Part shown: one piece after another, positions 1,067 through 32,591 of the stretch
Numbering within the stretch: the stretch's first letter is position 1
Layout of the letters: each line of letters opens with the position of its first letter
Virus record (IMG/VR): IMGVR_UViG_3300028601_000019
Span: 4,130-68,129 of that record
DNA from: a virus
Taxonomy: Duplodnaviria; Heunggongvirae; Uroviricota; Caudoviricetes
DNA length: 64,000 nucleotides
Direction: 5' to 3' (one strand)
Translations under genes and position numbers: made by a program
The notes under the pieces: model-generated
The model's input: the letters and a program-made list of their open reading frames with translations, nothing else
What the model was told of the DNA's origin: nothing
Database searches by the model: none

Positions 1067-1098
1067 GATATATAATATTAAAACTAGGTTGTAAACAA

Positions 1099-12296: not shown

Positions 12297-12320
12297 GCTA
12301 TTGATTTTATTAACAATTAG

Positions 12321-12345: not shown

Positions 12346-12375
12346 TTTACATTGCTTAATTTTTCATAAAAAATA

Positions 12376-19649: not shown

Positions 19650-20117
19650 ATGGCAATTAAAGTATCTTTAACACATAAGCATGGTAATATAACAATGAAG
19701 TCTGGGGAATTTTATACATTTAAATATACTGGGTTTGCACATGATCCCTCCCCGCATATATTATTTTTAAATAAACTACAGGGAATTCATCCAACATCTG
19801 GACGAGAATGACGTTTTATACAAGGGATCAACCTTAACTATATACCCCGACAAGACAGAAGAAAATTTGTAGATGATTGAATAAAAAATTATTCTAAATC
19901 TAAAAACCTAGAATTTACATGACAACTAGTTAAACGCAAATATCCATATATTGCTTTTGGAATTAGAAGATATTTTTGAAGCCCCCCATATTATATGTCT
20001 AAAATGGAACATCTTAATACCATAGAAAAGATTGAAAAGACAATTGTCGGCAATTGAGCTAAGGATTTCAGTAAAAAACTTAGAATGAAAATTGCACAAA
20101 TTTTTAAAAAAATGTAA
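19650..20117 (+). CDS. Hypothetical protein of 155 aa, with 5 in-frame TGA.
   Basis: Read through TGA with the frame checked at both ends. Confidence 0.4.
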
Positions 20118-20132
20118 AGAGGAAGATTGTTA

Positions 20133-21188
20133 ATGTATTGGTTTAAATGTTTCTTTATAACTCTAATAATTGTATTTGATTTTTTAGTATTTACTAGCCC
20201 AGTATCAACATCGGATTTAGATAAAAGAGATTTACTTCCAATTTTAAAAATTGCTATTGTAAACTCTTATGATATAGATCATGTTTGTGGAAGCCCCCAA
20301 ACACAAGGAATTATACATGGATTATCTAAATTAGATTCTAAGTATCAGCTTGATATACAAGTTTGATATATGAAAACAGATATAACATTTACTACACAGG
20401 ATAAGATAGAATATATTTCGAAGAAAGTTATAGAGGACATTAAAGCCTTTAATCCTGACCATATATTTACAGTAGATGATACTGCTTTTAAAAATGTTGG
20501 AATTCCCTTTTCTAAAACTCATAATGTATTTTTTTCTGGAATCAACAAACCATTTAATGAATATCTTGTGTCTGAAGATATGGATGGTTTAAAATTTTCA
20601 GGAATTGAAGAACAATTGGATATGGAAAAATTTTTTAAAATTATTTCCAAAATTGAATTTTATCCCAGTCGATTCTGAATATTAGCAGATTCTAATACCA
20701 CATCATTTTATCTTGCTCAAAATTATAAAAACGAAATAAAAAAACATAGTTCATTCTCAAGTGAAATTATAACTGTTTCCAGGACATCTGATCTTCGTAA
20801 GATACTTTCAAACTTACAACAGGAAAAGAAGGGTGTTATAATATATGCTTTTCAAACATTACTGGATGATGATTATAATGTTATAAAAACTAAAAAATCC
20901 CTATTATCCGACCTTTTAAAATACAACAAAAAACATCTAGAATTATGTGAAAATTGTTATTACTCCAAAAGTGGCATCTCATTAACACTGTCTCCAGATT
21001 TTTATAAAATGGGTATAGATGTTGCTAATATGTTTGTAGATTTTATAGAAAGTAAATCGTTTAAAACAGATATATTTAGGTCTTCAAATTTGTTTTCAAT
21101 AAATATTAAAAGATTGGAAGATCTTGAATTTAAATGGGTCTACAATAAAATTATTGAAGAGGTAGATGGCTCTTATGCAATATATTAA
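20133..21188 (+). CDS. Membrane-anchored protein of about 351 aa with a periplasmic-binding-protein-like region (KIAIVNSYDIDHVCGSPQTQGIIHGL), 2 in-frame TGA.
   Basis: N-terminal transmembrane segment FFITLIIVFDFLVF. Resembles COG2984-type substrate-binding proteins. Weak assignment. Confidence 0.35.
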
Positions 21189-21480
21189 AGGTAGACTTGG
21201 AAATTTATTTCATAAATTTATTTCAAATCTACATTACATAATGATCTGTATTGTTGGAATTCTTTTTATAGCAAATTTGATGTTTTATAATACAGAAGAA
21301 ATAAATTATTCAGATATAGTGTTAGATAAAACATTTGAAAATGTTGACGAAGTATATATTAATAATGAATTTGGCAAATCTTTGATATTAAAAGTTCCTC
21401 ATAGATCTAGAATCATAGTGCAAAAAAAGGAACTTGCAAATTCAAATACATTTTTAATCCGTGTAGACGTATTAAAATAG
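21166..21480 (+). CDS. Small membrane protein, 104 aa.
   Basis: GAGGTAG ribosome-binding site. One transmembrane helix. Confidence 0.4.
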   Translation: MALMQYIKGRLGNLFHKFISNLHYIMICIVGILFIANLMFYNTEEINYSDIVLDKTFENVDEVYINNEFGKSLILKVPHRSRIIVQKKELANSNTFLIRVDVLK

Positions 21481-21516
21481 GAGGTGATGTATTCAAACCC
21501 ACTAAGGAGTTAGGTT

Positions 21517-21933
21517 ATGATAGAATTTTTTTTAACTTTACCATTTAGCATAGAAATCTGAAAAACAATATCATTGTTATCATTAGCAGCAATAATATTT
21601 CTCGTTAGAATATATAATAAGTATTTTGTACTGGAAGAAATATTAGAAGTTCATGTTAAAAGGATCAGTGAAAATATAGATAAAATTAATGAACGACATG
21701 AAGAATTTCTAATAACAGTAGATAAGTTCATTGGTGTAATTACAACGACAGATGAAATAAGCATAAAGCAAAAAGAGCAAATAGATCTTTTAAATAAGAT
21801 AGTAGACGGGTTTAGAGTAAAGGGTGTTTGTGAATCGAAAGAAGTTATCAAGAATGAAGATAGTGACACATTAACTTTAAAGAAACTTTTAGATTTAATT
21901 TGTGAGGATTATGAATTACACAGAAAAGATTAA
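21517..21933 (+). CDS. Small membrane protein of about 138 aa, with 1 in-frame TGA.
   Basis: AAGGAG ribosome-binding site. Transmembrane helix plus a coiled-coil region. Confidence 0.4.
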
Positions 21934-22002
21934 ACAAACCATTGTTTACAATTTAGTTCCCCTGTTTTAAATTTAACCAAATTTGAAATGGGGGAACTTT
22001 TT

Positions 22003-22500
22003 ATGAACACACAACTACTGGAGCCCGAAAAAACAAAAATAAATTACTATGTAAAAAATAAAGATCTTCTTATTGAGATTGAAAAGCTTCAGGAAACTAA
22101 TGTTTTTTCTGATACATTGGGAAGATATATTATTAGAATTGTTAATGGCCTTTCACATAGACCAAACTTTAGTGGATATACATACATTGAAGATATGAAA
22201 TCTGAAGCACATGTAGCCATTATTAAAGGGCTTAGAAATTTTAATCTTGAAAAATCTAGTAATCCATTTGCATATATTACTCAAATAGCATGAAATGCTT
22301 TTATAGCATTCATAGGAAGAGAAAAGAAAAAATCCAAAACAAAGAAAAGATTATTTGATTTAAAAGATCTTATTCAAGAAGAAGATTCTATGTGTGCAAT
22401 TAACTATTCATATTATTGTGAAATAGAAGTATTTGAAAATGTTGACGAAGTTCCAGATGTTAAAATGGAAGATTTAGAAATTTGTGAGGAAAATGAATAA
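22003..22500 (+). CDS. gp55: Late-transcription sigma factor (T4 gp55-like), about 165 aa, with 1 in-frame TGA.
   Basis: RPNFSGYT matches T4 RFNFSGYT. NPFAYITQIA-TGA-NAFIAFIGREKK matches [21 protein letters not shown]. It lies adjacent to a gp47 homolog, as in T4. Confidence 0.8.
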
Positions 22501-23484
22501 ATGAAACATGCTGTTTTTACTGATCTTCATGTTGGGTTAAATATTAATCAAGAAGTATGGGAAAAACTCCCTATTAAAGCTGTAGAATTTCTAACAACAG
22601 AAGCAAGAAGAAGAAATCTTAAATCTATTATTTTTGCTGGTGATTTTTATCATGATAAAAAAGAACTATCAATCAAAGCCATTGATTCAGCAAGAATAAT
22701 CTGCGAAATGTTAGATGAATTTCAAACATATATTATTTGTGGAAATCATGATGCGTATTTTAGAAATACAAACGAACTAAATTCCCTTCAAACAATAGAT
22801 AAGTTTAAAAACATTCATATTATTAATTCACCAACAATTATATATGATAAAATTGGTCTTTGCCCCTGGTCAACAGACTATAGAGAATTAAAATGCCCTA
22901 TTCTAATTGGTCATTTTGATATTAAAGATTTTAAAATGAATGATAATACAACATCTTTTAAAGGTGAAGAAATTTCAAGCTTTAAAGATTTTGAAATTGT
23001 TATTTCTGGTCATTATCATACATATTCCAAAAAAGGAAATATAGTATATATTGGAAATATGTATGGTCATAATTTTAATGATGTTAATGCAAGTAGAGGA
23101 TTTCATATTTTCGATGATGAAACTTTGGAATTAGAATTTGTAGAATTCAAAGATGCTCCTAAATTTATTCATGTTTTCGATATGGATCTTAATGAAGAAC
23201 AAATTAAAGGAAACATTATAAAAATCTATTTTACAAAAGAATATTCTGAAATGGATATCCTTGATTTTCTTACTCGAGTTAATTCGCTAAATCCTTTACA
23301 GGTTGATGTCAACTATTCCAGAATTGAAATGGAAGATGTTAAAATGGATATTCCTGAAGAGATTTTTTCAACATTAGATGAGAAACAATTGTTTCTTACT
23401 TACTTGGATAAAATTTCTATTCCTGATCATCTTAAACTTCCAATGTGTAAAAAGATTTTAGAAGATTTATTTAAAAATCAATAG
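22501..23484 (+). CDS. gp47: Mre11/SbcD-like recombination nuclease (T4 gp47-like), 327 aa.
   Basis: Metallophosphoesterase motifs DLHVG, GDFYH, GNHD and GHYH. T4 gene order 55-47. Confidence 0.8.
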   Translation: MKHAVFTDLHVGLNINQEVWEKLPIKAVEFLTTEARRRNLKSIIFAGDFYHDKKELSIKAIDSARIICEMLDEFQTYIICGNHDAYFRNTNELNSLQTIDKFKNIHIINSPTIIYDKIGLCPWSTDYRELKCPILIGHFDIKDFKMNDNTTSFKGEEISSFKDFEIVISGHYHTYSKKGNIVYIGNMYGHNFNDVNASRGFHIFDDETLELEFVEFKDAPKFIHVFDMDLNEEQIKGNIIKIYFTKEYSEMDILDFLTRVNSLNPLQVDVNYSRIEMEDVKMDIPEEIFSTLDEKQLFLTYLDKISIPDHLKLPMCKKILEDLFKNQ

Positions 23485-23486
23485 AA

Positions 23487-23525
23487 TAAAAAAGGTAACT
23501 AGAGCAATTTAGTTACCTTTTTAGT
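23487..23525 (+). terminator. Rho-independent terminator AAGGTAACTA-gagcaat-TTAGTTACCTT followed by a T-run.
   Basis: 10-bp stem. Confidence 0.7.
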
Positions 23526-23534
23526 TTCTGTTCA

Positions 23535-23860
23535 TTGTTTACCCAATCAATAATACCCATTAATCTATACCCTCCGTACTAAGTTATATTATAACTAACC
23601 TATCCGGATATCATTGTAAACAAACAAACTAGGAAAATTTTCGGCAATTTGATATCATGTCCGGAAAACTCAAGATTCTTGATGATTCTAGGAAACCTAA
23701 TTATATCAATAACTTAGAAATCCTCCAAATTCTTAGTTTTCCTAATCAAATTAAGTACTTAGAAGAAATCCTCAAAAAACTAGTGAAAATCGTGTATAAT
23801 TATATTGATTTTTTGCAGGATTCAGGAATCCTAATTATTGTAATAATTTAGGATTCTGAA
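23535..23860 (+). repeat. Copy 1 of a 330-bp dispersed repeat. It contains the palindromes AGTTATATTATAACT, AGGATTCAGGAATCCT and AATTATTGTAATAATT, and a small ORF (23657..23851).
   Basis: About 85-90% identical to 48598..48925. The first palindrome differs between copies but is perfect in both, a compensatory change. Confidence 0.7.
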
Positions 23861-23872
23861 AAAAGTAGTGTA

Positions 23873-23923
23873 CATTCTTTCAAAATCTGGTTATTCTGAA
23901 AACATCTTAACAAACAAAACCAA
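23873..23923 (+). promoter_or_regulatory. Early-type promoter AAAAAGTAGTGTACATT ... GGTTATTCTGAAAACATCTTAACAAAC.
   Basis: The 17-mer is shared with 27885. The leader resembles the others. Confidence 0.4.
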
Positions 23924-24304
23924 ATGGAGATTAAGATGTTTGCTATTATTAATGAAAAGAACGAAAGGTTGTCTAATGGTTACACACTTAAATTTGTAGA
24001 TGCTTCTAAACGCTGTTGTCTATGGAAGAATGAGACTCCTGCTAGGAATCTTTTGAATAAACTTACTGATGATGGTGTGGTTGGATTACGAGTTGAAGAT
24101 ATTGGGGATGAACTTCCTAAGGTTGAAAAGAAAGAACGAAAGCTAAAAGAAGAAACTCAATCTCAAGAAGAAGTTGAATTTGATGAAACTTCATTTTTTG
24201 AGCAAGGAATTAATGAAAAATGTTTGAGATGTGAGGGCGACTGTAAACAGTCAGCTCTTGTAAAAATTATTCGTTGCCCTAGTTTCAAAAAGATTAAAAA
24301 ATAA
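23924..24304 (+). CDS. Hypothetical protein of 126 aa with a C-terminal CxxC..C region.
   Basis: ORF with a ribosome-binding site. Confidence 0.5.
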   Translation: MEIKMFAIINEKNERLSNGYTLKFVDASKRCCLWKNETPARNLLNKLTDDGVVGLRVEDIGDELPKVEKKERKLKEETQSQEEVEFDETSFFEQGINEKCLRCEGDCKQSALVKIIRCPSFKKIKK

Positions 24305-24369
24305 TGTATGTACATTCTCTCAATAGTTTGATACTTCTATTTTTAACACAATCATTTAAGGAGATTTTA

Positions 24370-24645
24370 ATGAATTCATTATTTGAAAGAATAGAGCCCA
24401 TGGATGGAGAAGAAATTGCCAAAGAACTTGGAACAACCCGCCAGTATATTTGTAACACACTCAAATCTGCCCTCCGCAAAGTATACAAATCTCTTAAACA
24501 GAAAAATCCTGACATGACCCCCTTTGAAATTGTAAATGCTATTAGAGAATTTTTTGGAATTGAAGACACAGATGAAGTCCGCATATTTTTTCAATCTTTT
24601 CCCCCAGATGTTAGAGAAGAAGTAGAATCTTCAATGAAAATGTAA
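24370..24645 (+). CDS. Standalone sigma-70 region-4-like helix-turn-helix protein, 91 aa.
   Basis: MDGEEIAKELGTTRQYICNTLKSALRKV matches the sigma70_r4 pattern (L..eIA..lG.t...V.q....Al.kL). AAGGAG ribosome-binding site. Confidence 0.5.
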   Translation: MNSLFERIEPMDGEEIAKELGTTRQYICNTLKSALRKVYKSLKQKNPDMTPFEIVNAIREFFGIEDTDEVRIFFQSFPPDVREEVESSMKM

Positions 24646-24652
24646 TTTTTTA

Positions 24653-24700
24653 TTTACAAACATTAAAAAGTTTTATATTCTGATCTTAACAAAACAACAT
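24653..24700 (+). promoter_or_regulatory. Early-type promoter TTTACA (-35) ... TATATT (-10) plus the leader CTGATCTTAACAAAACAACA.
   Basis: Nearly identical to 24954-24995 and 12376-12425. Confidence 0.5.
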
Positions 24701-24717
24701 TAACAAAGGAAACGATC

Positions 24718-24948
24718 ATGGAAATCAAGAAGGGCGACATCATTAGAAGTTATGACTTTCATTTCAATACTGATTGTTATAATGTTGGCATCGTAACAGA
24801 TGTTGATGATAAATGGATTTATTTCACCTCTGGTAAGAAGGTTTGGATGGGAGAAGAGATTGAAGATTTCGATCCTTATATGAGAACCGCCCCAATTGGA
24901 TTCATGATGCTTGACGAAGAATTTGAAAGAATTTTAATTTTAGCTTAA
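24718..24948 (+). CDS. Hypothetical early protein, 76 aa.
   Basis: ORF after an early promoter. Confidence 0.5.
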   Translation: MEIKKGDIIRSYDFHFNTDCYNVGIVTDVDDKWIYFTSGKKVWMGEEIEDFDPYMRTAPIGFMMLDEEFERILILA

Positions 24949-25024
24949 TTTTTGTTTACAAACATTAAAAAGTTTTATATTTCTCTAATTAATATAAACA
25001 ACTTAATCAAATGGAGATTATCTC

Positions 25025-25846
25025 ATGGCTACCCCAGTAACTTCTATGAATCCTTTCTTTAATGTTGAACGTTCTCCCGTTTACACAAAGTTCAACGGCA
25101 AGGAAATTCGCCTCTCTAAGGATGTTCTTGTAAATGTTGAAACTGGAAACCCTGTAGGTATTGTTGGCAGGGACTACAAGGTAGTTACAAATGCCGAAGT
25201 TAATGAAATTTTTGGTGAAGCTTTTTCCAAATATAAGATTAAGCAAACTATGGATTTCATGAAGAAGGGTGGTGAAACTTGGGTACGCAGGATTGTTTTT
25301 GAAGATGATTCTCTTACCTTTGATGTTGGAAACGGCGACTCTCAACATGTAATGTTGGAAATTTTCAATGGATTCAATCTTACAACTCGCTACGGGTATG
25401 AAATTTCACTTTTCCGTTCTATTTGTTCAAATGGAATGGTTTTCGGAAGAAAAAATCTCTTTGGTTTGAACTTCACCCACATGAAGAATAATCTTGAAGT
25501 TATTCAAAACACCTTTGAACTTGGTACAAAGGAAATTGGTGAAACAATTATTCCTACCTGGCAAAAGTGGACCAAGATTCCTCACACAATGAAAGATATG
25601 GAAACATTTATTGATTCTCGAGATTATGTCAACAATGACAAGATGAAGGAACGAATTCTTGTCAAGTATGAGGAAATTATGAATCGTGAAAAGCATGATG
25701 AAACTCGATTCGGTGCGTTTAATACGCTTACTTACATGATGACTCATGAAACAAGTTCTCGTCGTGAAGATACATCAAACATTTTTGGCAATGCTTACAG
25801 GAAGTATGAGCGGCTTGCCCAAGATATGTACGAACTTCCCATGTAA
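25025..25846 (+). CDS. DUF932/TIGR03299-like phage-plasmid protein, 273 aa.
   Basis: NPVGIVGRDYKVVTNAEVNEIF and RSICSNGMVFG resemble conserved DUF932 motifs. Confidence 0.4.
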   Translation: MATPVTSMNPFFNVERSPVYTKFNGKEIRLSKDVLVNVETGNPVGIVGRDYKVVTNAEVNEIFGEAFSKYKIKQTMDFMKKGGETWVRRIVFEDDSLTFDVGNGDSQHVMLEIFNGFNLTTRYGYEISLFRSICSNGMVFGRKNLFGLNFTHMKNNLEVIQNTFELGTKEIGETIIPTWQKWTKIPHTMKDMETFIDSRDYVNNDKMKERILVKYEEIMNREKHDETRFGAFNTLTYMMTHETSSRREDTSNIFGNAYRKYERLAQDMYELPM

Positions 25847-25857
25847 ATAAAAATTTT

Positions 25858-25923
25858 GGGAGAGATGAACCTCTTTGAGGTCATAGCAAGCCTTGAACTT
25901 GCCTCAATTAAATTGACTCTCCC
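25858..25923 (+). repeat. 66-nt structured intergenic repeat, copy 1. It has an outer stem GGGAGAG/CTCTCCC and two internal hairpins.
   Basis: Identical to 29593..29658. It lies directly after a stop codon. Confidence 0.7.
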
Positions 25924-25942
25924 TAATTTTAAGGAGCTAATT

Positions 25943-26413
25943 ATGTATGGAACTACAGATGACCTTATAGGATATTATTTTCAATATAAAGGCATATATG
26001 TGGGTTGGGATGATAATAGTGGAATGGATATGTTTATTCATCATAAAATTAAAGCTGGAAATTTTTCAACAATTTTCAATATTGTACCAGATGATTTTGA
26101 ATTTCCAACGGGCGATGATTTAAAACAAATCTATAAAAACTGTAAAACAGTCAAAGGATTTAGAGAGTTTATTGGGTATCAAAATAAATATTGGACTTCA
26201 GATGTATATTCTGATAATATAATGTATGCTTTTAATTTTAATAGGGGGCAATTTTCTAGGGAATATAAATCTTCAGATGGTTGTTATGGAATTTATATTA
26301 GAAAGATTTACAGAAATGATGATTTAGGCAATGATGCCCACATGAAAAGTCGTGGGTTCTATTCCCATAGACTACGATGGAAGAAGGATCTACAAGAATA
26401 TGATTACAACTAA
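25943..26413 (+). CDS. Hypothetical protein of about 156 aa.
   Basis: AAGGAG ribosome-binding site. The standard-code ORF start at 25856 lies inside the repeat and was not used. Confidence 0.45.
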   Translation: MYGTTDDLIGYYFQYKGIYVGWDDNSGMDMFIHHKIKAGNFSTIFNIVPDDFEFPTGDDLKQIYKNCKTVKGFREFIGYQNKYWTSDVYSDNIMYAFNFNRGQFSREYKSSDGCYGIYIRKIYRNDDLGNDAHMKSRGFYSHRLRWKKDLQEYDYN

Positions 26414-26585
26414 AGAAGAATATCATAAAGCTCTTAGACGGCTTGATGAACTTTGTACAAAAGAAAATCTTTCAGTTAAAGAAACAATTGAACTTGACAA
26501 AGAACTAGTCATAGATATTCAACTTTATGAAGATTTTCTTTTTCGTGAGTATTTGGACGAAAACTTTTTAACTTATAAAAATTAG
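26400..26585 (+). CDS. Small hypothetical protein of 61 aa.
   Basis: Overlapping ATG. Weak. Confidence 0.3.
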   Translation: MITTKEEYHKALRRLDELCTKENLSVKETIELDKELVIDIQLYEDFLFREYLDENFLTYKN

Positions 26586-26597
26586 GAGGATTAGAAA

Positions 26598-26957
26598 ATG
26601 ATGATTCAGTATGTTAGACGTGGCAAGAGTAGGATTCCTTTTGGAACTATGACCGCGCAAAAGCTTACAAATGCGAAGGGAATTGAATATCTTTCTTTGG
26701 GCTGGTCTATTTGTAATAAGAAGGATACATTTTTTAAAAGTATTGGAAAGGTTGAATCTATGGATAGGGCTACACATCATGATTTTTTCATGATGGATAA
26801 TGAAACTACAAGAATGGATATTCCTTCATCTTTTGCAAAGAAGTTCGAGCGATTTGCACAAAGGGCATCAGCATATTTTCAAACTAAGCAGTTTCAGAAT
26901 GAATATTTTGTAACTACAACCGAAATTACAACAAAGGAAGAAAGATTGGATGTTTAG
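26598..26957 (+). CDS. Hypothetical protein, 119 aa.
   Basis: AGGAGG ribosome-binding site. Confidence 0.5.
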   Translation: MMIQYVRRGKSRIPFGTMTAQKLTNAKGIEYLSLGWSICNKKDTFFKSIGKVESMDRATHHDFFMMDNETTRMDIPSSFAKKFERFAQRASAYFQTKQFQNEYFVTTTEITTKEERLDV

Positions 26958-27087
26958 ACCAGATAAGGAAGATGGATTATTCACCTTAAATTCTGTCTTC
27001 CTTCTTATTAAGGATAATAATTATATATTAGTTACTTTTAAAGATTGCTCAGATGAAGCAAAGGGGGTTGAAATATGAAACATTGAA

Positions 27088-27324
27088 TTGCTTAAACAAT
27101 TGCCAACTGAATTTGCAATGGTTCCAAACATTCCTTGTAAAAAGGAGAATGATGCAGTTAGAGCCAAAGATGTATATAAGCTAAGAATGTTCTTTGAAAA
27201 ATTAGGTTTTGATTTCTTCTTTTGGCATGAAACGATGGAAGAAGAAAAAAACTTTGAAAATATTGAAAAATTCTATTTACAAAGAATCAAGCCTAGTATA
27301 GAAAAAGAATTAAGAAGACAATAA
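27088..27324 (+). CDS. Hypothetical protein of about 78 aa. Start uncertain.
   Basis: ORF. Confidence 0.3.
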   Translation: MLKQLPTEFAMVPNIPCKKENDAVRAKDVYKLRMFFEKLGFDFFFWHETMEEEKNFENIEKFYLQRIKPSIEKELRRQ

Positions 27325-27331
27325 TTTAACT

Positions 27332-27405
27332 GGCCCAGTAACTCAACTGGATAGAGTACGAACCTCCTAAGTTCGAAGTTGCAAGATCGTACCTTGCCGG
27401 GGTCA
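27332..27405 (+). tRNA. tRNA-Arg (anticodon CCU), 74 nt, with one A-G mismatch in the acceptor stem.
   Basis: Hand-folded cloverleaf: acceptor GGCCCAG, D-arm ACTC/GAGT, anticodon arm CGAAC-CTCCTAA-GTTCG, T-arm GCAAG-ATCGTAC-CTTGC. Confidence 0.6.
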
Positions 27406-27411
27406 CAAAAT

Positions 27412-27484
27412 GCTCCTGTAGTTCAATTAGCAGAATCCCCGGCTCATAACCGGACAGTTGTAGGTGCAAATCCTGCCGGGAGCA
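27412..27484 (+). tRNA. tRNA with a CAU anticodon (elongator Met, or Ile if modified to lysidine), 73 nt.
   Basis: Hand-folded cloverleaf: acceptor GCTCCTG/CGGGAGC, anticodon loop CTCATAA, T-arm GTAGG-TGCAAAT-CCTGC. The 1:72 pair is G-C, so it is not an initiator. Confidence 0.65.
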
Positions 27485-27508
27485 CAAACTTTTAAAAGGA
27501 GATTTGAA

Positions 27509-27739
27509 ATGATTAGAGAAAAATCAGAAAGAAGCAATAAACCAATTATTATTGATCTTACAGGGCCAGAAGGAAATGCGTATGCTCTTATGGCTTATGC
27601 CAAATCATTTGCAAAACATCTTAGCTACTCTGTTTCCGATATAGAACTAATGATATCTGATATGATGAGTTCAGATTATGAACATCTTCTTGAGGTTTTT
27701 GATTCCCATTTTGGTGATTATGTAATCTTGGAGCGATAA
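27509..27739 (+). CDS. Hypothetical protein, 76 aa.
   Basis: AAAGGAG ribosome-binding site. Confidence 0.5.
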   Translation: MIREKSERSNKPIIIDLTGPEGNAYALMAYAKSFAKHLSYSVSDIELMISDMMSSDYEHLLEVFDSHFGDYVILER

Positions 27740-27895
27740 ATGAAAAATATGATTGTGGTTGCTGATTTTTTCATGGATCAAGATGAAGTTTCTATTGTTG
27801 ATTTTATCTTAAAACATCAAAATGTTATTAAATCCATTTACTTTAATGGCGAATTTTATAGCGTAGAAAAAACTTTGGAAAATTTTAAAAAGTAG
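27740..27895 (+). CDS. Hypothetical protein, 51 aa.
   Basis: The ATG abuts the previous TAA. Confidence 0.35.
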   Translation: MKNMIVVADFFMDQDEVSIVDFILKHQNVIKSIYFNGEFYSVEKTLENFKK

Positions 27896-27945
27896 TGTAC
27901 ATTTGTTTTGACTTTTGTTATTCTGATCTTAACAAAACAACAATT
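27885..27945 (+). promoter_or_regulatory. Early-type promoter AAAAAGTAGTGTACATT..TTTGAC..GTTATTCTGATCTTAACAAAACAACAA.
   Basis: Shared 17-mer and conserved leader. Confidence 0.45.
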
Positions 27946-28018
27946 TAACCAAGGGAAAATAAAATGATCACTTTCTTCAAGAACTACGAAAATATTGATG
28001 AAAATGGGGGTATGAATA

Positions 28019-28483
28019 GTGAAGATTAGACATTGTTTCGTCTCAAATTCAAGTAGTTCAAGTTTTATCATTGGGTTAGCCAAGACAGATGACAACTCAG
28101 GAACAAAATTTGATTCTTCAAATTTGGTTTGGTCGGAATGGAACGAAAGTTATTTTCTGGAAGTAGAGGGTGGAAGATATTCCGGTGAAATTTATGTTCG
28201 TAAAAATGATGATGGGAGTTATAAACTTGAAATTGAATCTTTTATGGGATCATCAGTAACTTGTAATATTAAAGATGGAGAATACTTCCTTCATGTTGAT
28301 GGTGCTGGTCCAGGAGAGGATTCTTTCTTTTCTGTATATGATGATGATGGAAACTGGGTTGACATTGATTATGATATGATTGAACTTGACGATTTTGATA
28401 AAAAAGATGTTGAAAAGTTTTATAAGATTCGTGATCTTGGTGGGGATGCTACCTATGGAACAAAAGTTATTTTCTGGGAGTAG
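28019..28483 (+). CDS. Hypothetical protein of 154 aa with the N-terminus MKIRHCFVSNSSSSSFI. It is terminated by the junction of a tandem duplication.
   Basis: GTG start. Shares the MKIR.(C/F)FVSNSSSSSFI N-terminus with the 28794 gene. Confidence 0.45.
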   Translation: MKIRHCFVSNSSSSSFIIGLAKTDDNSGTKFDSSNLVWSEWNESYFLEVEGGRYSGEIYVRKNDDGSYKLEIESFMGSSVTCNIKDGEYFLHVDGAGPGEDSFFSVYDDDGNWVDIDYDMIELDDFDKKDVEKFYKIRDLGGDATYGTKVIFWE

Positions 28484-28780
28484 AGGGTGGAAGATATTCC
28501 GGTGAAATTTATGTTCGTAAAAATGATGATGGGAGTTATAAACTTGAAATTGAATCTTTTATGGGATCATCAGTAACTTGTAATATTAAAGATGGAGAAT
28601 ACTTCCTTCATGTTGATGGTGCTGGTCCAGGAGAGGATTCTTTCTTTTCTGTATATGATGATGATGGAAACTGGGTTGACATTGATTATGATATGATTGA
28701 ACTTGACGATTTTGATAAAAAAGATGTTGAAAAGTTTTATAAGATTCGTGATCTTGGTGGGGATGCTACCTATGGAGCAG
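28140..28780 (+). repeat. Tandem direct duplication of about 318 bp x 2. The second copy is out of frame.
   Basis: 28157-28470 is repeated at 28473-28790. The junction reads TTATTTTCTGG(G/A)AGTAGAGGGTGG. Confidence 0.8.
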
Positions 28781-28794
28781 GGAGGAATGGTTAA
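28561..28794 (+). pseudogene. Duplicated 3' fragment of the 28019 gene.
   Basis: The amino-acid sequence is identical to the C-terminus of the 28019 protein. Confidence 0.5.
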
Positions 28795-29116
28795 TGAAAA
28801 TTAGGAAATTTTTTGTAAGCAATAGTTCAAGCAGTAGCTTCATTGTCCTTACACAGGGAATTTCTGAAATTCAAAAAGAACTTCTTTTAAACATTGAAGA
28901 TGAGTGGTTTAAACAAGATCCTTGGAGAATTACTGAAGAAGAATTTTGGATTGAAGGGTATACATCCATGGATAACTTTGATATGAATGAATATATGGAA
29001 AAGATTGGTATTGATGTTAAAAAATATGTAAAATGGTGGTATGTTTACTTATGTTGGATCAATACTTGATGATGGAAATTTTGTTTATTCGATTGTCATT
29101 CGCATGTATTTACATT
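28794..29116 (+). CDS. Paralog of the 28019 gene (MKIRKFFVSNSSSSSFI). Its 3' end overlaps the 29041 ORF in another frame.
   Basis: N-terminal paralogy. Ends with a W-W-W run via TGA codons. Confidence 0.4.
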
Positions 29117-29262
29117 CCTTGGATAATGGGTTTATTGATGCTATTATTACATGGAATGATGGTGAGCGTGTAAATGTGACGGATGAAAAGGTTGATTATA
29201 ACATGCTCATGAATAAGCCGAACCTCTTTGCCACTACATATCTTGTTGAGGAAGCCCATTAA
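29041..29262 (+). CDS. Hypothetical protein of 73 aa in the +1 frame relative to the 28794 gene.
   Basis: Clean ORF without TGA. Confidence 0.35.
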   Translation: MFTYVGSILDDGNFVYSIVIRMYLHSLDNGFIDAIITWNDGERVNVTDEKVDYNMLMNKPNLFATTYLVEEAH

Positions 29263-29287
29263 TAATTTAACTTAGAGGAAAATTAAA

Positions 29288-29584
29288 ATGTGTGAAAATT
29301 CTACGATTATTGTTTATGATCCTTATGGAAATGCAAATTTGACCAATGACGGCAATTTGCATGAAAAGGCAAAGGAACTTCTTACTGACTTTAGGGTACA
29401 TGAGATTTATAGGTCCATTACCATTACTGTATGTCAGAAGTCTCTTGCAGGAACCCTTGTTTCCATGTGCAAAAGCAATTATCCCAATTATGGGTGGGTA
29501 AAGGTTTTTGACCCCTATAATGCTCTAACCAATTCCAAGTATCTGAAACATTACGTTCAGAATTCAAGTCCCGAAATCGACTAA
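29288..29584 (+). CDS. Hypothetical protein, 98 aa.
   Basis: GAGGAAAATTAAA ribosome-binding site. Confidence 0.5.
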   Translation: MCENSTIIVYDPYGNANLTNDGNLHEKAKELLTDFRVHEIYRSITITVCQKSLAGTLVSMCKSNYPNYGWVKVFDPYNALTNSKYLKHYVQNSSPEID

Positions 29585-29592
29585 TCTTTTTT

Positions 29593-29658
29593 GGGAGAGA
29601 TGAACCTCTTTGAGGTCATAGCAAGCCTTGAACTTGCCTCAATTAAATTGACTCTCCC
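29593..29658 (+). repeat. 66-nt structured intergenic repeat, copy 2.
   Basis: Identical to 25858..25923. Confidence 0.7.
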
Positions 29659-29683
29659 CTTCTTTATTTAAAAGGACTTATAT

Positions 29684-30226
29684 ATGGAAAAATATTTTAA
29701 AAATTTGGTTGAAGATTTAGAATGTTTACTTGATGATTATGTTGTTTACCCATATAAAAGAATTAGAGATAAGTATTACGATGTTAAATATGGAATCAAG
29801 AACCTAATTCGATGGTTCCCAGTTATTTGGGGTGATCGTGATTGGGATTTTGCATATATGTTTGCTCTTCTCGAAAAGAAGTTTGAACACTATGAAAAAG
29901 AGTGGAGTTCTGATGCATGTTTTGTTGTAGGATCTGAAAAACAAGTAAAGAGATTCAAGATTTGCAAAGAACTTTGTAGACGATTAAAAGATGATTGGTA
30001 TTATCATGAAAATACTTTTATGTTCCATGATAAGAAATGGGGGGATTTAGAATTTACAGATAGCCCTAGATGTATTACACGAACAAATATAAAATCTAAG
30101 GAAGATGATGATCTTGAAGCAACAGAATCCCTTAGATTATTTAAGATTGAAAATGCAAGAAAAGATGCGGATGTTGAACTTCTTCAAATGTATATTAGAA
30201 AATATTGGAAGACATGGTGGTGGTAA
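29684..30226 (+). CDS. Hypothetical protein, 180 aa.
   Basis: ORF with a ribosome-binding site. Confidence 0.5.
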   Translation: MEKYFKNLVEDLECLLDDYVVYPYKRIRDKYYDVKYGIKNLIRWFPVIWGDRDWDFAYMFALLEKKFEHYEKEWSSDACFVVGSEKQVKRFKICKELCRRLKDDWYYHENTFMFHDKKWGDLEFTDSPRCITRTNIKSKEDDDLEATESLRLFKIENARKDADVELLQMYIRKYWKTWWW

Positions 30227-30227
30227 T

Positions 30228-30525
30228 GGATAGAACATCTGACTCCACAAAGATTGAAAAGATTATTATAATCCACACACCGCTTGGAAGATGCTACTAT
30301 AATGTTGGTGGAATGAGAACTGATACAACAGCATGTATAATGTGTGAAAGTAATATTCCTTTTGAATCTGAATGTATAACGATTAAAATAGACGATTCAT
30401 TTGAAACAGAAGAAATAAATGAATGTGTGAAGTTTCATAAAGATGATTTACTTGATGAACAAGAAAGATTTTTGAAAGAAAAAGAGAAACGAAACTTTAG
30501 AAGAATGTGTAAAGGAAGGAGATAA
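30228..30525 (+). CDS. Hypothetical Cys-rich protein of about 99 aa.
   Basis: ORF. Start chosen at MDRTSDS. Confidence 0.4.
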
Positions 30526-30526
30526 A

Positions 30527-30961
30527 ATGACTATTCAAAATGACCTAATGAAAGAACTGGCTAATACTGCCAAAGAAGGCGTGACTATCCGTAGGAACAA
30601 CATCAAGTTTCTTGTTGGGCAGTTTCAAAGAGTGGCTAAAAACAAGGAAAAGATTGTTGAAGATTCTGAAGCTATCAAGATCATGAAGAATCTTTACTCA
30701 TCAATGAAGGAAATTACTCTTCCAAGTTTGAAAAAAGATGGTTATGAGTATTTTGAAGCCATTGATTTTATTGTCCTTTGTGAGGAACTTCTTCCAAAAA
30801 TGGCTACAGAATCAGAAGTTATTGAATTTCTTACATCTATTGACTTCAAAAGTCTGAAGTCTCCAATGCAAGCTATTGGAATTACAGTAAAACACTTTAA
30901 TGGAAATGTGAAACCTGAACTTGTAAGAAATTGTTTACCTTTTCTTGGGATCTATGTATAG
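30527..30961 (+). CDS. Hypothetical protein, 144 aa.
   Basis: ORF. Confidence 0.5.
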   Translation: MTIQNDLMKELANTAKEGVTIRRNNIKFLVGQFQRVAKNKEKIVEDSEAIKIMKNLYSSMKEITLPSLKKDGYEYFEAIDFIVLCEELLPKMATESEVIEFLTSIDFKSLKSPMQAIGITVKHFNGNVKPELVRNCLPFLGIYV

Positions 30962-30979
30962 TTGCTTTAGGAGGGATAA

Positions 30980-31345
30980 ATGGTTATTGATAATGTTGAT
31001 GAACTAAACGACCAGATTAGTAAATTTTTAAAATTTGAAAAGGATCTTAAAGATTATTTGATTGGTTATTTTAAAAACAAATCAATTTCTCTTGAAGATA
31101 GATGGGCTACCTTTGAAAGAATTGGGAACATTTTTCCAATCCATCCATGGTACATATCACTTAAAGAGCTTGATAATAATGATTTAGAATGGTATGCTGA
31201 TTTTGGATATGATAGATATAGAACAGTTGAATTTCTTGAAGTTGTTCAAACAATTGAAGAAAATGATTATATGGACGTAGATTTAAATAGATTAAAAGAA
31301 GAAATTCTTGAAAGTGGATATTTCGGGTTCACTCACGATTGGTAA
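30980..31345 (+). CDS. Hypothetical protein, 121 aa.
   Basis: GGAGGG ribosome-binding site. Confidence 0.5.
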   Translation: MVIDNVDELNDQISKFLKFEKDLKDYLIGYFKNKSISLEDRWATFERIGNIFPIHPWYISLKELDNNDLEWYADFGYDRYRTVEFLEVVQTIEENDYMDVDLNRLKEEILESGYFGFTHDW

Positions 31346-31584
31346 AAATTAACGGAGGAAAAATGTTAAAATTATATTGTTGGGTTGTTCTTGTGTTTTT
31401 TATTTTGGTAGGAAACTTTGGGTTTGTGTTACCCTATCTTGTATCTGCTGCTCATACTGAGCTTGTTCTTTTGGGTTGTGTTATTGGGTTGATTATTCCT
31501 ATTGCGTTAGTGTTTATTGTTAAATATAAAATTATCCCAATTGTTAAAGAAATGATTGGAAAAGCTACCAAAGGAGAAATGTAG
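31339..31584 (+). CDS. Small protein with two transmembrane helices, 81 aa. A possible NfeD-like partner of the SPFH gene.
   Basis: Two hydrophobic helices. Lies immediately upstream of the SPFH gene. Confidence 0.45.
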   Translation: MVKINGGKMLKLYCWVVLVFFILVGNFGFVLPYLVSAAHTELVLLGCVIGLIIPIALVFIVKYKIIPIVKEMIGKATKGEM

Positions 31585-31585
31585 A

Positions 31586-32449
31586 ATGAAAAAGATTATG
31601 TTGCTTGTGGGTCTAATGTTGATGATGTTTATGTGTACCGGATGCCTTGAGCGTGTTCCTTCTGGCCATGTTGGTGTAAAGGTTTTCCTACTTGGCGGTG
31701 ATAAAGGCGTAGATAGTCAAGAACTTGGGGTTGGTCGTTATTGGATTGGATGGAATGAGGAATTACATATTTTCCCAACATTTACTCAAAACTATGTTTG
31801 GACTGCCGATGTAACAGAGGGTTCTGAAACAGATGAATCAATTACATTCCAAACAATGGAAGGACTATCAGTAAATGCTGATATTGGTATTGCATATCAT
31901 ATTGATCCTACTAAGGTATCAGTAATTTTTCAGAAGTATCGTAAGGGTGTGCAAGAAATTACTGATATTTACCTACGAAACATTGTAAGAGATGCCTTTG
32001 CAACTGTCGCATCTAATCGCCCTGTAGAGTTTGTTTATGGTGAAGGAAAATCTGAACTTAGAACAGAAGTTGAAAATATTGTAAAGGCTAAAGTTGAACC
32101 AATTGGTATTATCATTGAACAGATTTCTTTTGTAGGCAATTTAAGACTTCCAGAAACTGTTATTAGTGCCATTAATGCTAAGATTGAGGCAACACAAACG
32201 GCACAGAGAGCAGAAAATCAACTTCGTGAAGCAGAGGCAGAAGCACGAAAGAAGATTGCAGAAGCTCAAGGCCAAGCCGAATCCATTAAGTTGGTCGCAA
32301 TTTCACAAGCCGAAGCTAACAAGATTCTTAGTGCATCTATTACATCTAACCTAGTAGAATATAAGCGTATTGAAAAGTGGAACGGGATCATGCCAACATA
32401 TATGGCAGGGAACATGCCAACACCAATGTTAAATATGAAGTCTGAGTAA
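31586..32449 (+). CDS. SPFH/Band-7 (prohibitin/HflK-like) family lipoprotein, 287 aa.
   Basis: Signal peptide with a lipobox (MKKIMLLVGLMLMMFMCTGC). SPFH core GHVGVKVFLLGG... A C-terminal EA-repeat coiled coil (REAEAEARKKIAEAQGQAE). Confidence 0.65.
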   Translation: MKKIMLLVGLMLMMFMCTGCLERVPSGHVGVKVFLLGGDKGVDSQELGVGRYWIGWNEELHIFPTFTQNYVWTADVTEGSETDESITFQTMEGLSVNADIGIAYHIDPTKVSVIFQKYRKGVQEITDIYLRNIVRDAFATVASNRPVEFVYGEGKSELRTEVENIVKAKVEPIGIIIEQISFVGNLRLPETVISAINAKIEATQTAQRAENQLREAEAEARKKIAEAQGQAESIKLVAISQAEANKILSASITSNLVEYKRIEKWNGIMPTYMAGNMPTPMLNMKSE

Positions 32450-32466
32450 AATAACTGTTTACAAGT

Positions 32467-32505
32467 ATGAAAGGGTTTGATAGGGTTTTCTTATCAAACC
32501 CTTTC
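32467..32505 (+). terminator. Hairpin GAAAGGGTTTGATA-gggttttct-TATCAAACCCTTTC, with a 14-bp stem.
   Basis: Perfect inverted repeat after the SPFH gene. The following T-run is weak. Confidence 0.55.
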
Positions 32506-32522
32506 ACATTTAGGAGATTAGA

Positions 32523-32591
32523 AATGGCAACAATTCACAATAATGGATGGGATTTTGTTAAAGAAGGAGAAACATACCAATATTATATTTA
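32523..32591 (+). CDS. Short ORF of 22 aa (MATIHNNGWDFVKEGETYQYYI) that ends at the IS left boundary. It may be the remnant of an interrupted gene.
   Basis: GGAG ribosome-binding site. The stop TAG is the first IS nucleotides. Confidence 0.25.

What the first reader, a model, noticed from the sequence alone, without database searches (positions are those of the whole stretch)
25858..25923. Identical 66-nt structured element placed right after stop codons
GGGAGAG...CTCTCCC closes two inner hairpins (ATGAACCTC/GAGGTCAT and GCAAG/CTTGC). It occurs twice with 100% identity (25858..25923 and 29593..29658), each time 5-10 nt after a gene stop and preceded by a T-run. It could be a processed small RNA, an unusual terminator or attenuator, or a miniature mobile element.
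Basis: seen in the sequence. Interest (0 to 1): 0.6.

Follow-up and report, generated by a model that had tools for sequence, protein, structure and literature searches.

The report
tRNA-shaped RNA element between phage genes
Two identical 66-base stretches just after gene ends in an uncultivated T4-like phage fold into a cloverleaf that related phages preserve through matching base changes, so this is a real structured RNA absent from the RNA family catalogue, probably marking or protecting pieces of a long early messenger RNA.

Summary
A 70-nt unit (TTTT plus 66 nt) occurs twice, identically, at 25854-25923 and 29589-29658. Each copy starts 8-11 nt after a TAA stop.

The fold is a cloverleaf with three inner hairpins, not two, closed by the 7-bp stem GGGAGAG/CUCUCCC.

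I found 15 distinct copies in related metagenomic phage contigs. In them 99.2% of pair positions stay paired, and 13 of 24 pairs show changes on both sides, in all four helices. G·U wobbles and gene orientation point to an RNA on the + strand.

What it is not:
- Not in Rfam.
- Not a bacterial-type tRNA.
- Not in 185,579 reference genomes at the one exact core pattern tested.
- Not a classic intrinsic terminator: most copies lack a U-tract.
- Not a PeSL: no promoter follows.
- Not a MITE: no target duplication, syntenic sites, 1-2 copies per contig.

The 100% identity is best explained by gene conversion of copy 2 by copy 1.

In some relatives the same slot holds a plain 15-bp RNA hairpin instead. 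My best reading, which is inferred, is a cis-acting intercistronic element in the early polycistronic mRNA that also carries real tRNA genes. It would act in processing or stability, and its tRNA-like shape may recruit tRNA-processing enzymes. A released tRNA-mimic small RNA is the main rival.

The parts
25854..25923 (+). Copy 1 of the 70-nt unit (TTTT plus the 66-nt cloverleaf), 11 nt after the TAA stop of the DUF932 gene
   Evidence: CM R1, 101.8 bits, E 5.6e-25
25858..25864 (+). Copy 1, 5' strand of the 7-bp closing ('acceptor-like') stem GGGAGAG; pairs with 25917-25923 CTCTCCC
   Evidence: 3 of 7 pairs covary in relatives (AGGAGAG/CUCUCCU in L016, GGGAUGG/CCAUCCC in L019)
25865..25884 (+). 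Copy 1, hairpin 1: ATGA-A-CCTC TTT GAGG-TCAT, 8 bp with a conserved bulged A; it abuts the closing stem with no linker
   Evidence: 3 pairs with double changes; base ATGA/TCAT nearly invariant
25886..25902 (+). Copy 1, hairpin 2: 5-bp stem GCAAG/CTTGC with a 7-nt loop CCTTGAA (anticodon-arm dimensions). Loop consensus C-Y-U-U-K-A-A. Flanked by single junction bases A25885 and C25903
   Evidence: stem covaries at 3 of 5 pairs; the loop is nearly invariant
25904..25916 (+). Copy 1, hairpin 3: TCAAT TAA ATTGA; in relatives 4-6 bp with a 3-5 nt loop, the most variable arm
   Evidence: all 4 modelled pairs covary
25917..25923 (+). Copy 1, 3' strand of the closing stem CTCTCCC
29589..29658 (+). Copy 2 of the 70-nt unit, identical to copy 1, 8 nt after the TAA stop of a 98-aa gene. 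Same sub-parts at +3735: stem 29593-29599/29652-29658, hairpin 1 29600-29619, hairpin 2 29621-29637, hairpin 3 29639-29651
25025..25846 (+). Upstream gene of copy 1: DUF932 (PF06067) protein, 273 aa. The slot right after its stop is the conserved 'context 1' of the element
29288..29584 (+). Upstream gene of copy 2: 98-aa protein of unknown function ('context 2', conserved in L009, L011, L013, L014, L015)
25943..26413 (+). Downstream gene of copy 1 (156 aa, AAGGAG site 8 nt before the ATG); only 19 nt separate the element from the ATG
29684..30226 (+). Downstream gene of copy 2 (180 aa); 25 nt separate the element from the ATG
27332..27485 (+). Two genuine tRNA genes (Arg-CCT 27332-27406, Met/Ile2-CAT 27412-27485) on the same strand, lying between the two copies. 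They show that this transcript must pass through tRNA-processing enzymes

Best explanation
Shown: the element is a conserved, structured RNA made as part of the + strand early polycistronic mRNA of a group of uncultivated T4-like phages. It folds into a compact four-way junction, a cloverleaf. The parts are a 7-bp closing stem, an 8-bp bulged hairpin, a 5-bp/7-nt-loop hairpin and a 4-6 bp hairpin, with only one unpaired base at two of the four junction corners. It sits 8-11 nt after the upstream stop codon in 11 of the 13 copies measured (10 nt in L019, about 21 nt in L016 copy 2). That is about where I estimate the leading edge of a terminating ribosome to lie.

Inferred: it acts in cis as an intercistronic 'punctuation' signal. 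It would be a processing and/or stability determinant that defines and protects the 3' end of the upstream cistron, the 5' end of the downstream one, or both. Its tRNA-like shape (7-bp acceptor-like stem, an anticodon-arm-sized hairpin, closing stem plus hairpin 3 totalling 11-13 bp) makes the host's tRNA-processing enzymes (RNase P, 3' trimming) plausible readers. Those enzymes must already cut this transcript to free the real tRNAs encoded between the two copies. RNase E, acting at the A/U-rich tract just 5' of the stem, is an alternative enzyme.

Also inferred: the perfect identity of the two window copies comes from recent gene conversion of copy 2 by copy 1, not from transposition.
For: Structure:
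- RNAalifold independently returns the cloverleaf.
- In 15 distinct copies, 99.2% of cells are paired against 33-43% when partners are slid.
- 13 of 24 pairs have double changes, against 5.2 +/- 1.4 in shuffles (0 of 500 reach the observed value). All four helices are supported.

Strand:
- All neighbouring genes are on the + strand.
- 6 cells are G·U wobbles on the + strand. One sits inside the 4-bp hairpin 3 of L011 and L015, where the minus strand would have a C·A mismatch.
- The flanks on the other side are not conserved, so there is no conserved minus-strand promoter.

Cis role and read-through:
- The next start codon is 17-49 nt away, and in most copies there is no room for a promoter.

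Generic structural role of the slot:
- With the same flanking genes (DUF932 and the 'MFIN...' gene), L010 has the cloverleaf while L011, L015 and L034 have a plain 15-bp hairpin. The L034 version carries two G·U pairs on the + strand.
- L019 has a small hairpin followed by AUUUU there.

tRNA likeness:
- ARAGORN's mitochondrial mode calls a cloverleaf tRNA in all 12 copies tested.
- Real tRNA genes lie in the same transcription unit in every relative examined.

Gene conversion:
- In relatives, context-2 copies have hairpin 3 UCGG-CUAGA-CCGA and context-1 copies mostly have UCAAU-UAA-AUUGA. In the window both copies carry the context-1 form and the TTTT flank.
- Copies from the same assembly share lineage-specific variants: hairpin 1 in L008 and L014, hairpin 2 in the two L016 copies.
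Against: No RNA-end or stability data exist, so the processing and stability role is inference only.

A plain stabiliser would not need the nearly invariant loop 2 (C-Y-U-U-K-A-A), the bulged A or the fixed junction bases. These suggest a specific partner that I have not identified.

Features that help RNase P recognition are missing. There is no T-loop or D-loop consensus and no encoded CCA, and the base at -1 is U in most copies but C or G in two.

The minus-strand fold is on average about 3 kcal/mol more stable, and its middle loop (UUCAAGG) looks more like a canonical anticodon or T loop. The strand assignment therefore rests on wobble pairs and context only.

The covariation alignments were fitted to the model and the sequences are related, so the cell counts overstate the number of independent events.
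Confidence: 0.45

Rival explanations
1. A trans-acting stable small RNA. The 66-nt cloverleaf would be cut out of the mRNA and accumulate as a tRNA mimic that binds a tRNA-recognising factor. It could be a decoy or inhibitor of a host anticodon nuclease or other tRNA-targeting defence, or the ligand of a phage tRNA-binding protein such as the GatB/YqeY-like protein encoded nearby (window 30527-30961).
For: The most conserved unpaired part is the anticodon-arm-like hairpin 2: a 5-bp stem whose sequence covaries, and a 7-nt loop that is nearly fixed as C-Y-U-U-K-A-A. The L001 loop CUUUUAA equals the E. coli tRNA-Lys(UUU) anticodon loop (own knowledge). Cloverleaf dimensions match a tRNA. A protein matching phrog_1460 ('tRNA amidotransferase', YqeY-like) is conserved in the same gene block and sits directly downstream of the element in L019. 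There are two copies per genome, which would raise the dose.
Against: Nothing shows that the RNA is released or stable. No own promoter or terminator is visible. In three lineages the same slot is filled by a plain hairpin with no tRNA-like features. That fits a generic structural role better. Position 33 of the loop is C in most copies, unlike real anticodon loops. No anticodon nuclease or repair genes were examined.
Confidence: 0.2
2. A transcription-level signal. It could be a leaky factor-independent terminator or attenuator at the end of the upstream cistron. Or it could be the opposite: an RNA that modifies RNA polymerase for processive read-through, like the two put sites of phage HK022.
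For: There are two copies per genome, about 66 nt each, with multiple hairpins, in early transcripts. They lie 0.9 kb and 1.7 kb downstream of repeated early-promoter cassettes (24949-24981, 27887-27942). Placement just past a stop codon resembles lambda nutR after cro (own knowledge). L019 has a hairpin plus U-run in the DUF932 slot and a U-tract after its own cloverleaf. Some copies have T-rich sequence 3-5 nt after the stem.
Against: Only 1 of 13 copies examined has a U-tract immediately after the stem. A branched 52-nt interior is not what intrinsic terminators look like. Downstream genes lack their own promoters, so efficient termination would silence them. No strong terminator that would need read-through was found downstream of either copy within 20-36 kb. 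The put similarity is recalled from memory and was not tested.
Confidence: 0.12
3. A miniature mobile element or purely DNA-level recombination cassette (MITE, IS200/IS605-derived PATE, integron attC-like site, or PeSL-like shuffling motif) with no RNA function.
For: The two copies are 100% identical. The closing stem looks like a 7-bp terminal inverted repeat. Two TnpB elements live in the same window. The element lies at boundaries where gene content differs between relatives, and its position shifts in L016 copy 2 and L019. ssDNA hairpins of IS200/IS605 ends would also covary.
Against: There is no target-site duplication and no conserved target beyond a pyrimidine run. The repeat finder over the whole window reported no repeat family linking the element to the TnpB element ends at 969-1038 and 2286-2313, and I saw no resemblance on reading those ends. 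There are only 1-2 copies per contig, at syntenic slots. No copy was found by the core pattern in 185,579 reference genomes, and only 3 IMG/VR contigs carry it. G·U wobble pairs are tolerated. The attC R''/R' cores (RYYYAAC/GTTRRRY, own knowledge) are absent from the sequence. No promoter follows, as a PeSL requires (for the definition). Identity is explained by gene conversion.
Confidence: 0.05
4. A genuine but highly reduced tRNA (mitochondrial-like, without D/T-loop elbow) used in decoding, possibly linked to the phage's TGA-to-Trp recoding.
For: It has cloverleaf topology with a 7-bp acceptor stem and a 5-bp/7-nt anticodon arm. ARAGORN -mt calls all 12 tested copies. The phage recodes TGA.
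Against: The Rfam tRNA model gives no hit at E<=10 on either strand. ARAGORN's standard mode finds none. The -mt calls switch strand and identity between orthologues (Gln/Lys on +, Leu/Phe on -). No copy has a UCA anticodon. C33 occurs in most copies. There are no D- or T-loop conserved bases and no linker bases 8-9.
Confidence: 0.03

Closest known systems
tRNA and tRNA-like structures used as processing or mimicry signals (mitochondrial tRNA punctuation, MALAT1 mascRNA, bacterial and phage YrlA Y-RNA tRNA-like domains, RNase P-cleaved phage RNAs such as P1 C4 precursor)
   Same: Cloverleaf four-way junction. A 7-bp closing stem. A middle arm of 5 bp plus a 7-nt loop. Closing stem plus third hairpin totals 11-13 bp, like the 12-bp acceptor/T minihelix. 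Embedded in a longer transcript that also carries real tRNAs.
   Different: No D-loop or T-loop consensus, no elbow, no linker nucleotides 8/9 and no variable loop. Hairpin 1 is an 8-bp bulged helix. No CCA. No hit to Rfam tRNA or YrlA models. The 'anticodon' is not conserved.
Intercistronic RNase III sites of phage T7/T3 early mRNA and other 3' stabilising hairpins (REP elements)
   Same: Structured elements placed between cistrons of a phage early polycistronic mRNA, just past stop codons and read through by RNA polymerase. Interchangeable with a plain 15-bp hairpin in relatives. Closing stem plus hairpin 1 would stack to about 15 bp.
   Different: Branched four-way junction rather than a single irregular hairpin. 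A conserved 7-nt loop. No sequence similarity was tested or expected. Cleavage is unproven.
PeSL (promoter-early stem-loop) cassettes of T4-like phages (PMC2839356, PMC4122927)
   Same: Repeated intergenic motif in the plastic early-gene region of a T4-like phage. It lies at boundaries of gene gain and loss. Direct repeats that can recombine.
   Different: As defined, a PeSL is a simple stem-loop followed by a sigma-70-like early promoter, a Shine-Dalgarno site and a start codon. Here no promoter follows and the structure is a cloverleaf under RNA-level selection. The window has separate PeSL-like promoter repeats elsewhere (D5/D8/D12).
HK022 put (polymerase-utilisation) antitermination RNAs
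   Same: Two copies per phage genome, about 65-70 nt, multi-hairpin, acting within early transcripts (own knowledge).
   Different: put has two hairpins rather than a four-way junction, and is promoter-proximal. No terminators needing read-through were seen downstream. Similarity was not testable here.
Transcribed MITEs such as Neisseria Correia elements
   Same: Short repeat with inverted termini, co-transcribed with genes and folding in the mRNA.
   Different: No target duplication, no dispersal (1-2 syntenic copies), and compensatory evolution of internal hairpins.

Membership tests
tRNA (Rfam RF00005 / bacterial tRNA) | Scores with the tRNA covariance model or a bacterial tRNA finder | tested here: not met
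   No RF00005 hit at E<=10 on either strand around copy 1 or around the L019 copy. ARAGORN's standard mode finds 0 of 12. The real tRNAs nearby score 47-66 bits.
tRNA (Rfam RF00005 / bacterial tRNA) | Conserved anticodon identity among orthologues; U33 and purine 37 | tested here: not met
   On the + strand the loop is CCUUGAA, CCUUUAA or CUUUUAA (C33 in most). ARAGORN -mt assigns Gln, Lys, Leu or Phe on varying strands.
tRNA (Rfam RF00005 / bacterial tRNA) | Cloverleaf with a 7-bp acceptor stem and a 5-bp/7-nt anticodon arm | tested here: met
   This is shape only.
Intrinsic (Rho-independent) terminator | G+C-rich hairpin followed within 0-2 nt by a U-tract | tested here: not met
   The scan of 20000-36000 does not list either copy. 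Of 13 copies examined, only L019 has a U-tract right after the stem.
PeSL cassette of T4-like phages | Stem-loop immediately followed by a sigma-70-like early promoter, then Shine-Dalgarno site and start | tested here: not met
   Definition from PMC4122927. Only 17-33 nt separate the stem from the ATG in most copies, with no -35/-10. Possible TTTACA-N17-TAGAAA only in the longer L002 and L016 spacers.
MITE / IS200-IS605-derived PATE | Ends related to a resident IS; target-site signature; many dispersed copies | tested here: not met
   No repeat family links the element to the TnpB element ends in the whole-window repeat scan; none seen on reading those ends. No target duplication. Two copies in 64 kb.
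Integron attC site | R''/R' core sites (RYYYAAC ... GTTRRRY) bounding an imperfect hairpin after a cassette ORF | tested here: not met
   The sequence shows GGGAGAG ... CTCTCCC termini and no GTT/AAC cores. The core consensus is from own knowledge. No integrase search was done.
Any Rfam 15 family | Reaches a family's gathering score | tested here: not met
   Only the tRNAs pass in the window and in five related loci. The best sub-threshold hits near the element are chance-level snoRNA and lncRNA models at E>1.
Self-cleaving ribozymes with multi-way junctions (hammerhead, twister-sister, hairpin) | Conserved unpaired catalytic core nucleotides in the junction or internal loops | tested here: not met
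   The junction has only two unpaired bases (A, C) and one bulged A. No Rfam ribozyme hit.
RNase P substrate / tRNA-like processing signal | Cleavage at the 5' base of the closing stem by RNase P | not testable with these tools
   Needs an in-vitro cleavage assay or 5'-end mapping. Only shape and context are compatible.

The most novel reading that the evidence does not exclude
The cloverleaf is excised from the early mRNA and acts in trans as a minimal tRNA mimic. Its anticodon-arm look-alike has a fixed C-Y-U-U-K-A-A loop, similar to the anticodon loops of Lys/Gln-type UUN tRNAs. This arm would titrate or inhibit a host tRNA-targeting defence nuclease, or load a phage tRNA-binding (YqeY/GatB-like) protein. 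That would make it an RNA-based counter-defence or regulator encoded in the 3' UTRs of early genes.
Probability: 0.12. Interest if true: 0.85.

Novelty: new variant of a known kind. Interest (0 to 1): 0.55.

Why it matters
This adds a well-supported structured RNA family to phage biology, and Rfam 15 does not hold it. Covariation is seen in all four helices from only 15 sequences.

It shows a tRNA-shaped fold used as intergenic punctuation in a double-stranded DNA phage, a layout better known from mitochondria. The same slot can be filled by a cloverleaf or by a plain hairpin, which is a natural experiment on what intercistronic RNA structures do in T4-like early transcripts.

If the fold recruits tRNA-processing enzymes or mimics a tRNA toward defence nucleases, it would be a new route of phage post-transcriptional control or counter-defence.

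The finding also flags a group of uncultivated T4-like phages with TGA-to-Trp recoding of late genes.

Tried and rejected
- Rfam at gathering and permissive thresholds: only the tRNAs.
- INPHARED phage genomes: no DNA match for 24000-31000 and no protein match for the DUF932 gene.
- A first structure-based collection scan was mis-spaced by me (22 and 16 N instead of 21 and 14). It found nothing and wasted one scan. An exact 35-mer also found nothing.
- The reference-genome scan with the conserved core gave 10 hits. None folds like the element (best 20.9 bits), so they are chance hits. The L004 hit is a real tRNA on the opposite strand that matched the pattern by chance.
- Coding peptide: an ATG inside the element opens a frame, but L001, L015 and L019 have an in-frame TAA in loop 2, and stems change in a compensatory way. 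Rejected.
- SD/anti-SD ideas (loop 2 CCUU or the 3' strand CUCUCCC pairing with the downstream AAGGA): only 3-4 bp, and it does not covary with loop variants. Rejected.
- Loop 1 to loop 3 kissing, as a D/T-loop analogue: no consistent complementarity across variants.
- Relation to the TnpB element ends: none.
- Strand choice by folding energy: uninformative; the minus strand is slightly more stable.
- Literature searches for a described phage cloverleaf or tRNA-like intergenic motif found nothing matching.

Full report
**1. Observation**

The 66-nt sequence GGGAGAGATGAACCTCTTTGAGGTCATAGCAAGCCTTGAACTTGCCTCAATTAAATTGACTCTCCC is present at 25858-25923 and 29593-29658 with no mismatch. The identical unit is 70 nt, because it includes the preceding TTTT (D6). 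The closing-stem pattern is expected 0.02 times in shuffles. Covariance-model scans of the whole window with filters off find exactly these two copies.

Copy 1 begins 11 nt after the TAA stop of a DUF932 gene (25025-25846). Copy 2 begins 8 nt after the TAA stop of a 98-aa gene (29288-29584). The next start codons are 19 and 25 nt downstream.

The RNA fold is a cloverleaf. Only a bulged A and two single junction bases are unpaired outside the loops. The fold is -26.1 kcal/mol with z = -3.45.

**2. What the window is**

The window has 31% G+C and small tightly packed + strand genes. It encodes SbcD/gp47-like and SbcC/gp46-like nucleases and a tail sheath whose C-terminal 300 residues align to T4 gp18 at E 1e-60. 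It is therefore a distant T4-like myovirus with no close relative in INPHARED.

The element lies in the early-gene block between gp47 and gp46. This block also holds repeated sigma-70-like early promoter cassettes (TTTACA-N17-TATTCT plus a conserved leader; D5/D8/D12) and two real tRNA genes at 27332-27485, between the two copies.

**3. Relatives**

I found homologous loci by protein-guided and pattern-guided searches of IMG/VR, JGI metagenomes, and ENA and Logan assemblies. They give 15 distinct copies of the element.

- 'Context 1', directly after the DUF932 stop: window, L001, L002 (same as L036-38), L008, L010, L016 (same as L017), L032 (same as L033), L035.
- 'Context 2', after the 98-aa gene: window, L009, L011, L013, L014, L015.
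- Shifted positions within the same gene block: L016 copy 2 and L019.

**4. Structure is under selection**

RNAalifold on a plain MAFFT alignment returns the same cloverleaf. On the model-fitted alignment of 15 distinct copies:

| Measure | Observed | Control |
|---|---|---|
| Cells forming standard pairs | 99.2% | 33-43% with partners slid by 1-3 columns |
| Pairs changed on both sides (of 24) | 13 | 5.2 +/- 1.4 in shuffles; 0 of 500 as high |

Every helix contributes (for the 13-copy set). Examples:

- Closing stem: GGGAGAG/CUCUCCC becomes AGGAGAG/CUCUCCU (L016) or GGGAUGG/CCAUCCC (L019).
- Hairpin 2: GCAAG/CUUGC becomes GCAGA/UCUGC, GCAGG/CCUGC or GUAGA/UCUAC.
- Hairpin 3: UCAA/UUGA becomes UCGG/CCGA, CUGGA/UCCAG, UAGA/UCUA or CCAA/UUGG.

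Caveats: the alignment is fitted to the model, and the sequences are related.

Conserved single-stranded features are loop 2 (C-Y-U-U-K-A-A), the bulged A, the junction A and C, and a pyrimidine run 5' of the stem.

**5. Strand**

All flanking genes are on the + strand. Six cells are G·U on the + strand. One is an internal G·U in the 4-bp hairpin 3 of L011 and L015, which would be C·A on the other strand. The downstream flank is not conserved, so there is no conserved promoter for a minus-strand RNA.

Folding energies do not help, because the minus strand is slightly more stable. I take the + strand as the functional one, with moderate confidence.

**6. What it is not**

- *Not an Rfam family*.
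- *Not a bacterial-type tRNA.* There is no covariance-model hit and no standard ARAGORN call. The mitochondrial mode calls every copy, but on inconsistent strands and with Gln, Lys, Leu or Phe anticodons. This shows a tRNA-like shape without tRNA identity.
- *Not a classic intrinsic terminator.* Only L019 has a U-tract at the stem, and downstream genes have no promoter of their own.
- *Not a PeSL.* That motif is defined as a stem-loop plus an early promoter, and no promoter follows here.
- *Not a MITE or PATE.* It has no target duplication, no link to the two resident TnpB elements, and syntenic single or double copies. Only three IMG/VR contigs carry it, and no structured match was found in 185,579 reference genomes with the one core pattern tested.
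- *Not coding.* The internal ATG frame is closed by TAA in several relatives.

**7. Why the two copies are identical**

In relatives, the context-2 copies carry hairpin 3 UCGG-CUAGA-CCGA and a YCTT 5' flank. Context-1 copies mostly carry UCAAU-UAA-AUUGA and TTTT. In the window both copies have the context-1 form, including TTTT.

Copies from the same assembly also share lineage-specific variants. Hairpin 1 is ACUUU-AUU-GAAGU in both JTFP01 contigs (L008 and L014). Hairpin 2 is GCAGA in both L016 copies.

This is the pattern of gene conversion between 70-nt repeats 3.7 kb apart, in a phage type I know to recombine very actively. It is not the pattern of transposition. That L008 and L014 come from one genome is an inference.

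**8. The slot can hold other structures**

L010 and L011 have the same genes on both sides (DUF932 and an 'MFIN...' gene). L010 has the cloverleaf. L011, L015 and L034 have a plain 15-bp hairpin (UUACCCACGGAAAAC ... GUUUUCCGUGGGUAA) with no U-tract. The L034 version has two G·U pairs on the + strand.

L019 has a 6-bp hairpin over the stop codon followed by AUUUU. L020 has nothing.

So the common requirement at this position seems to be a stable + strand RNA structure just beyond the reach of the terminating ribosome.

**9. Mechanism**

*Shown:* a selected, compact, tRNA-shaped RNA fold inside a read-through early polycistronic transcript that also carries real tRNAs.

*Inferred (confidence about 0.45):* it acts in cis as intercistronic punctuation. 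It would be a processing site and/or exonuclease barrier that sets the ends and the stability of neighbouring cistrons. Candidate readers:

- tRNA-processing enzymes, given the shape (closing stem plus hairpin 3 = 11-13 bp; U at -1 in most copies);
- RNase E, at the A/U tract just upstream of the stem.

*Rivals:*

| Rival | Confidence | Main point |
|---|---|---|
| Released tRNA-mimic small RNA | 0.20 | Best explains the fixed loop 2; a YqeY/GatB-like gene is conserved nearby |
| Terminator, attenuator or put-like antiterminator | 0.12 | Two multi-hairpin copies in early transcripts |
| Mobile or recombination cassette without RNA function | 0.05 | Perfect identity and inverted termini |
| Reduced decoding tRNA | 0.03 | Cloverleaf shape only |

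**10. Novelty and score**

This is a new RNA motif absent from Rfam 15. I file it as a new variant of known kinds (tRNA-like structures and phage intercistronic RNA elements), not as a member of any tested family. Interest is 0.55. The structure is solid and unusual for a DNA phage. The function is unresolved, and the family is so far small and confined to one uncultivated phage group.

Noticed in passing
window 14411-16087 (-), 2319-4310 (-), 39871-44085 (-): TGA appears to be read as Trp in late genes. The sheath gene has 4 in-frame TGAs; three align with W, F or Y of T4 gp18 and one with R. The terminase-like ORF has 7 and a 1404-aa ORF has 8. Early genes (DUF932, SbcC/SbcD-like) have none. 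Treating TGA as sense raises long-ORF coverage from 67% to 90%. No UCA suppressor tRNA is in this window.
   Followed up: partly
window 969-2313 and 32579-33931: Two TnpB (Cas12f1-like TNB domain) IS200/IS605-type elements, 91-93% identical, with no TnpA nearby. In both, the ORF called under the standard code stops at a TGA that is followed in frame by the RuvC-like motif DAD*NASINIARLG. They are therefore intact only under the recoded reading.
   Followed up: partly
L011 7990-8055 (-), L015 1185-1235, L034 3130-3180: The plain 15-bp hairpin that replaces the cloverleaf after DUF932 has its 10-nt loop exactly reverse-complemented in L015 (CCCATTTAGA) relative to L011 (TCTAAATGGG); L034 has the L011 orientation with one substitution (TCTAAATGTG). 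This looks like a small inversion flanked by the stem arms.
   Followed up: partly
window 12368-12423, 23860-23899, 24647-24699, 24949-24981, 27887-27942: Repeated early-promoter cassettes (T[T/G]TACA-N17-TATTCT plus the conserved leader GATCTTAACAAAACAACA). The one at 12368 follows a terminator hairpin (12315-12347). These resemble the PeSL cassettes described for T4-like phages.
   Followed up: partly
window 28138-28437 and 28455-28754: A 99% identical tandem duplication with a 317-nt period, inside small early ORFs between the two cloverleaf copies.
   Followed up: no
window 23535-23862 and 48594-48932: A repeat of about 330 nt at 90-92% identity, 25 kb apart, including a 64-aa ORF. Its nature is unknown.
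   Followed up: no
window 27332-27485; L001, L002, L011, L013, L015, L016: The tRNA pair between the copies changes anticodon between relatives. Arg is CCT in the window but TCT in all relatives. The second tRNA is CAT (Met, or lysidine-type Ile2) in some relatives and TAT (Ile) in others.
   Followed up: no
window 30527-30961: A 144-aa protein matching phrog_1460 ('tRNA amidotransferase', YqeY/GatB-like). It is conserved in all related loci that reach this far, and lies directly downstream of the cloverleaf in L019.
   Followed up: partly
L004 11903-11980 (+): An unrelated IMG/VR contig carries a tRNA with acceptor stem GGGAGAG/CTCTCCC. ARAGORN reports it as tRNA-??? with an irregular anticodon loop. 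It matched my search pattern by chance.
   Followed up: no
L036 10851-11042 (also L037, L038): Public gene calls place a 63-aa ORF across the cloverleaf. They also fragment upstream genes, probably because the standard code was used for a TGA-recoded phage.
   Followed up: no
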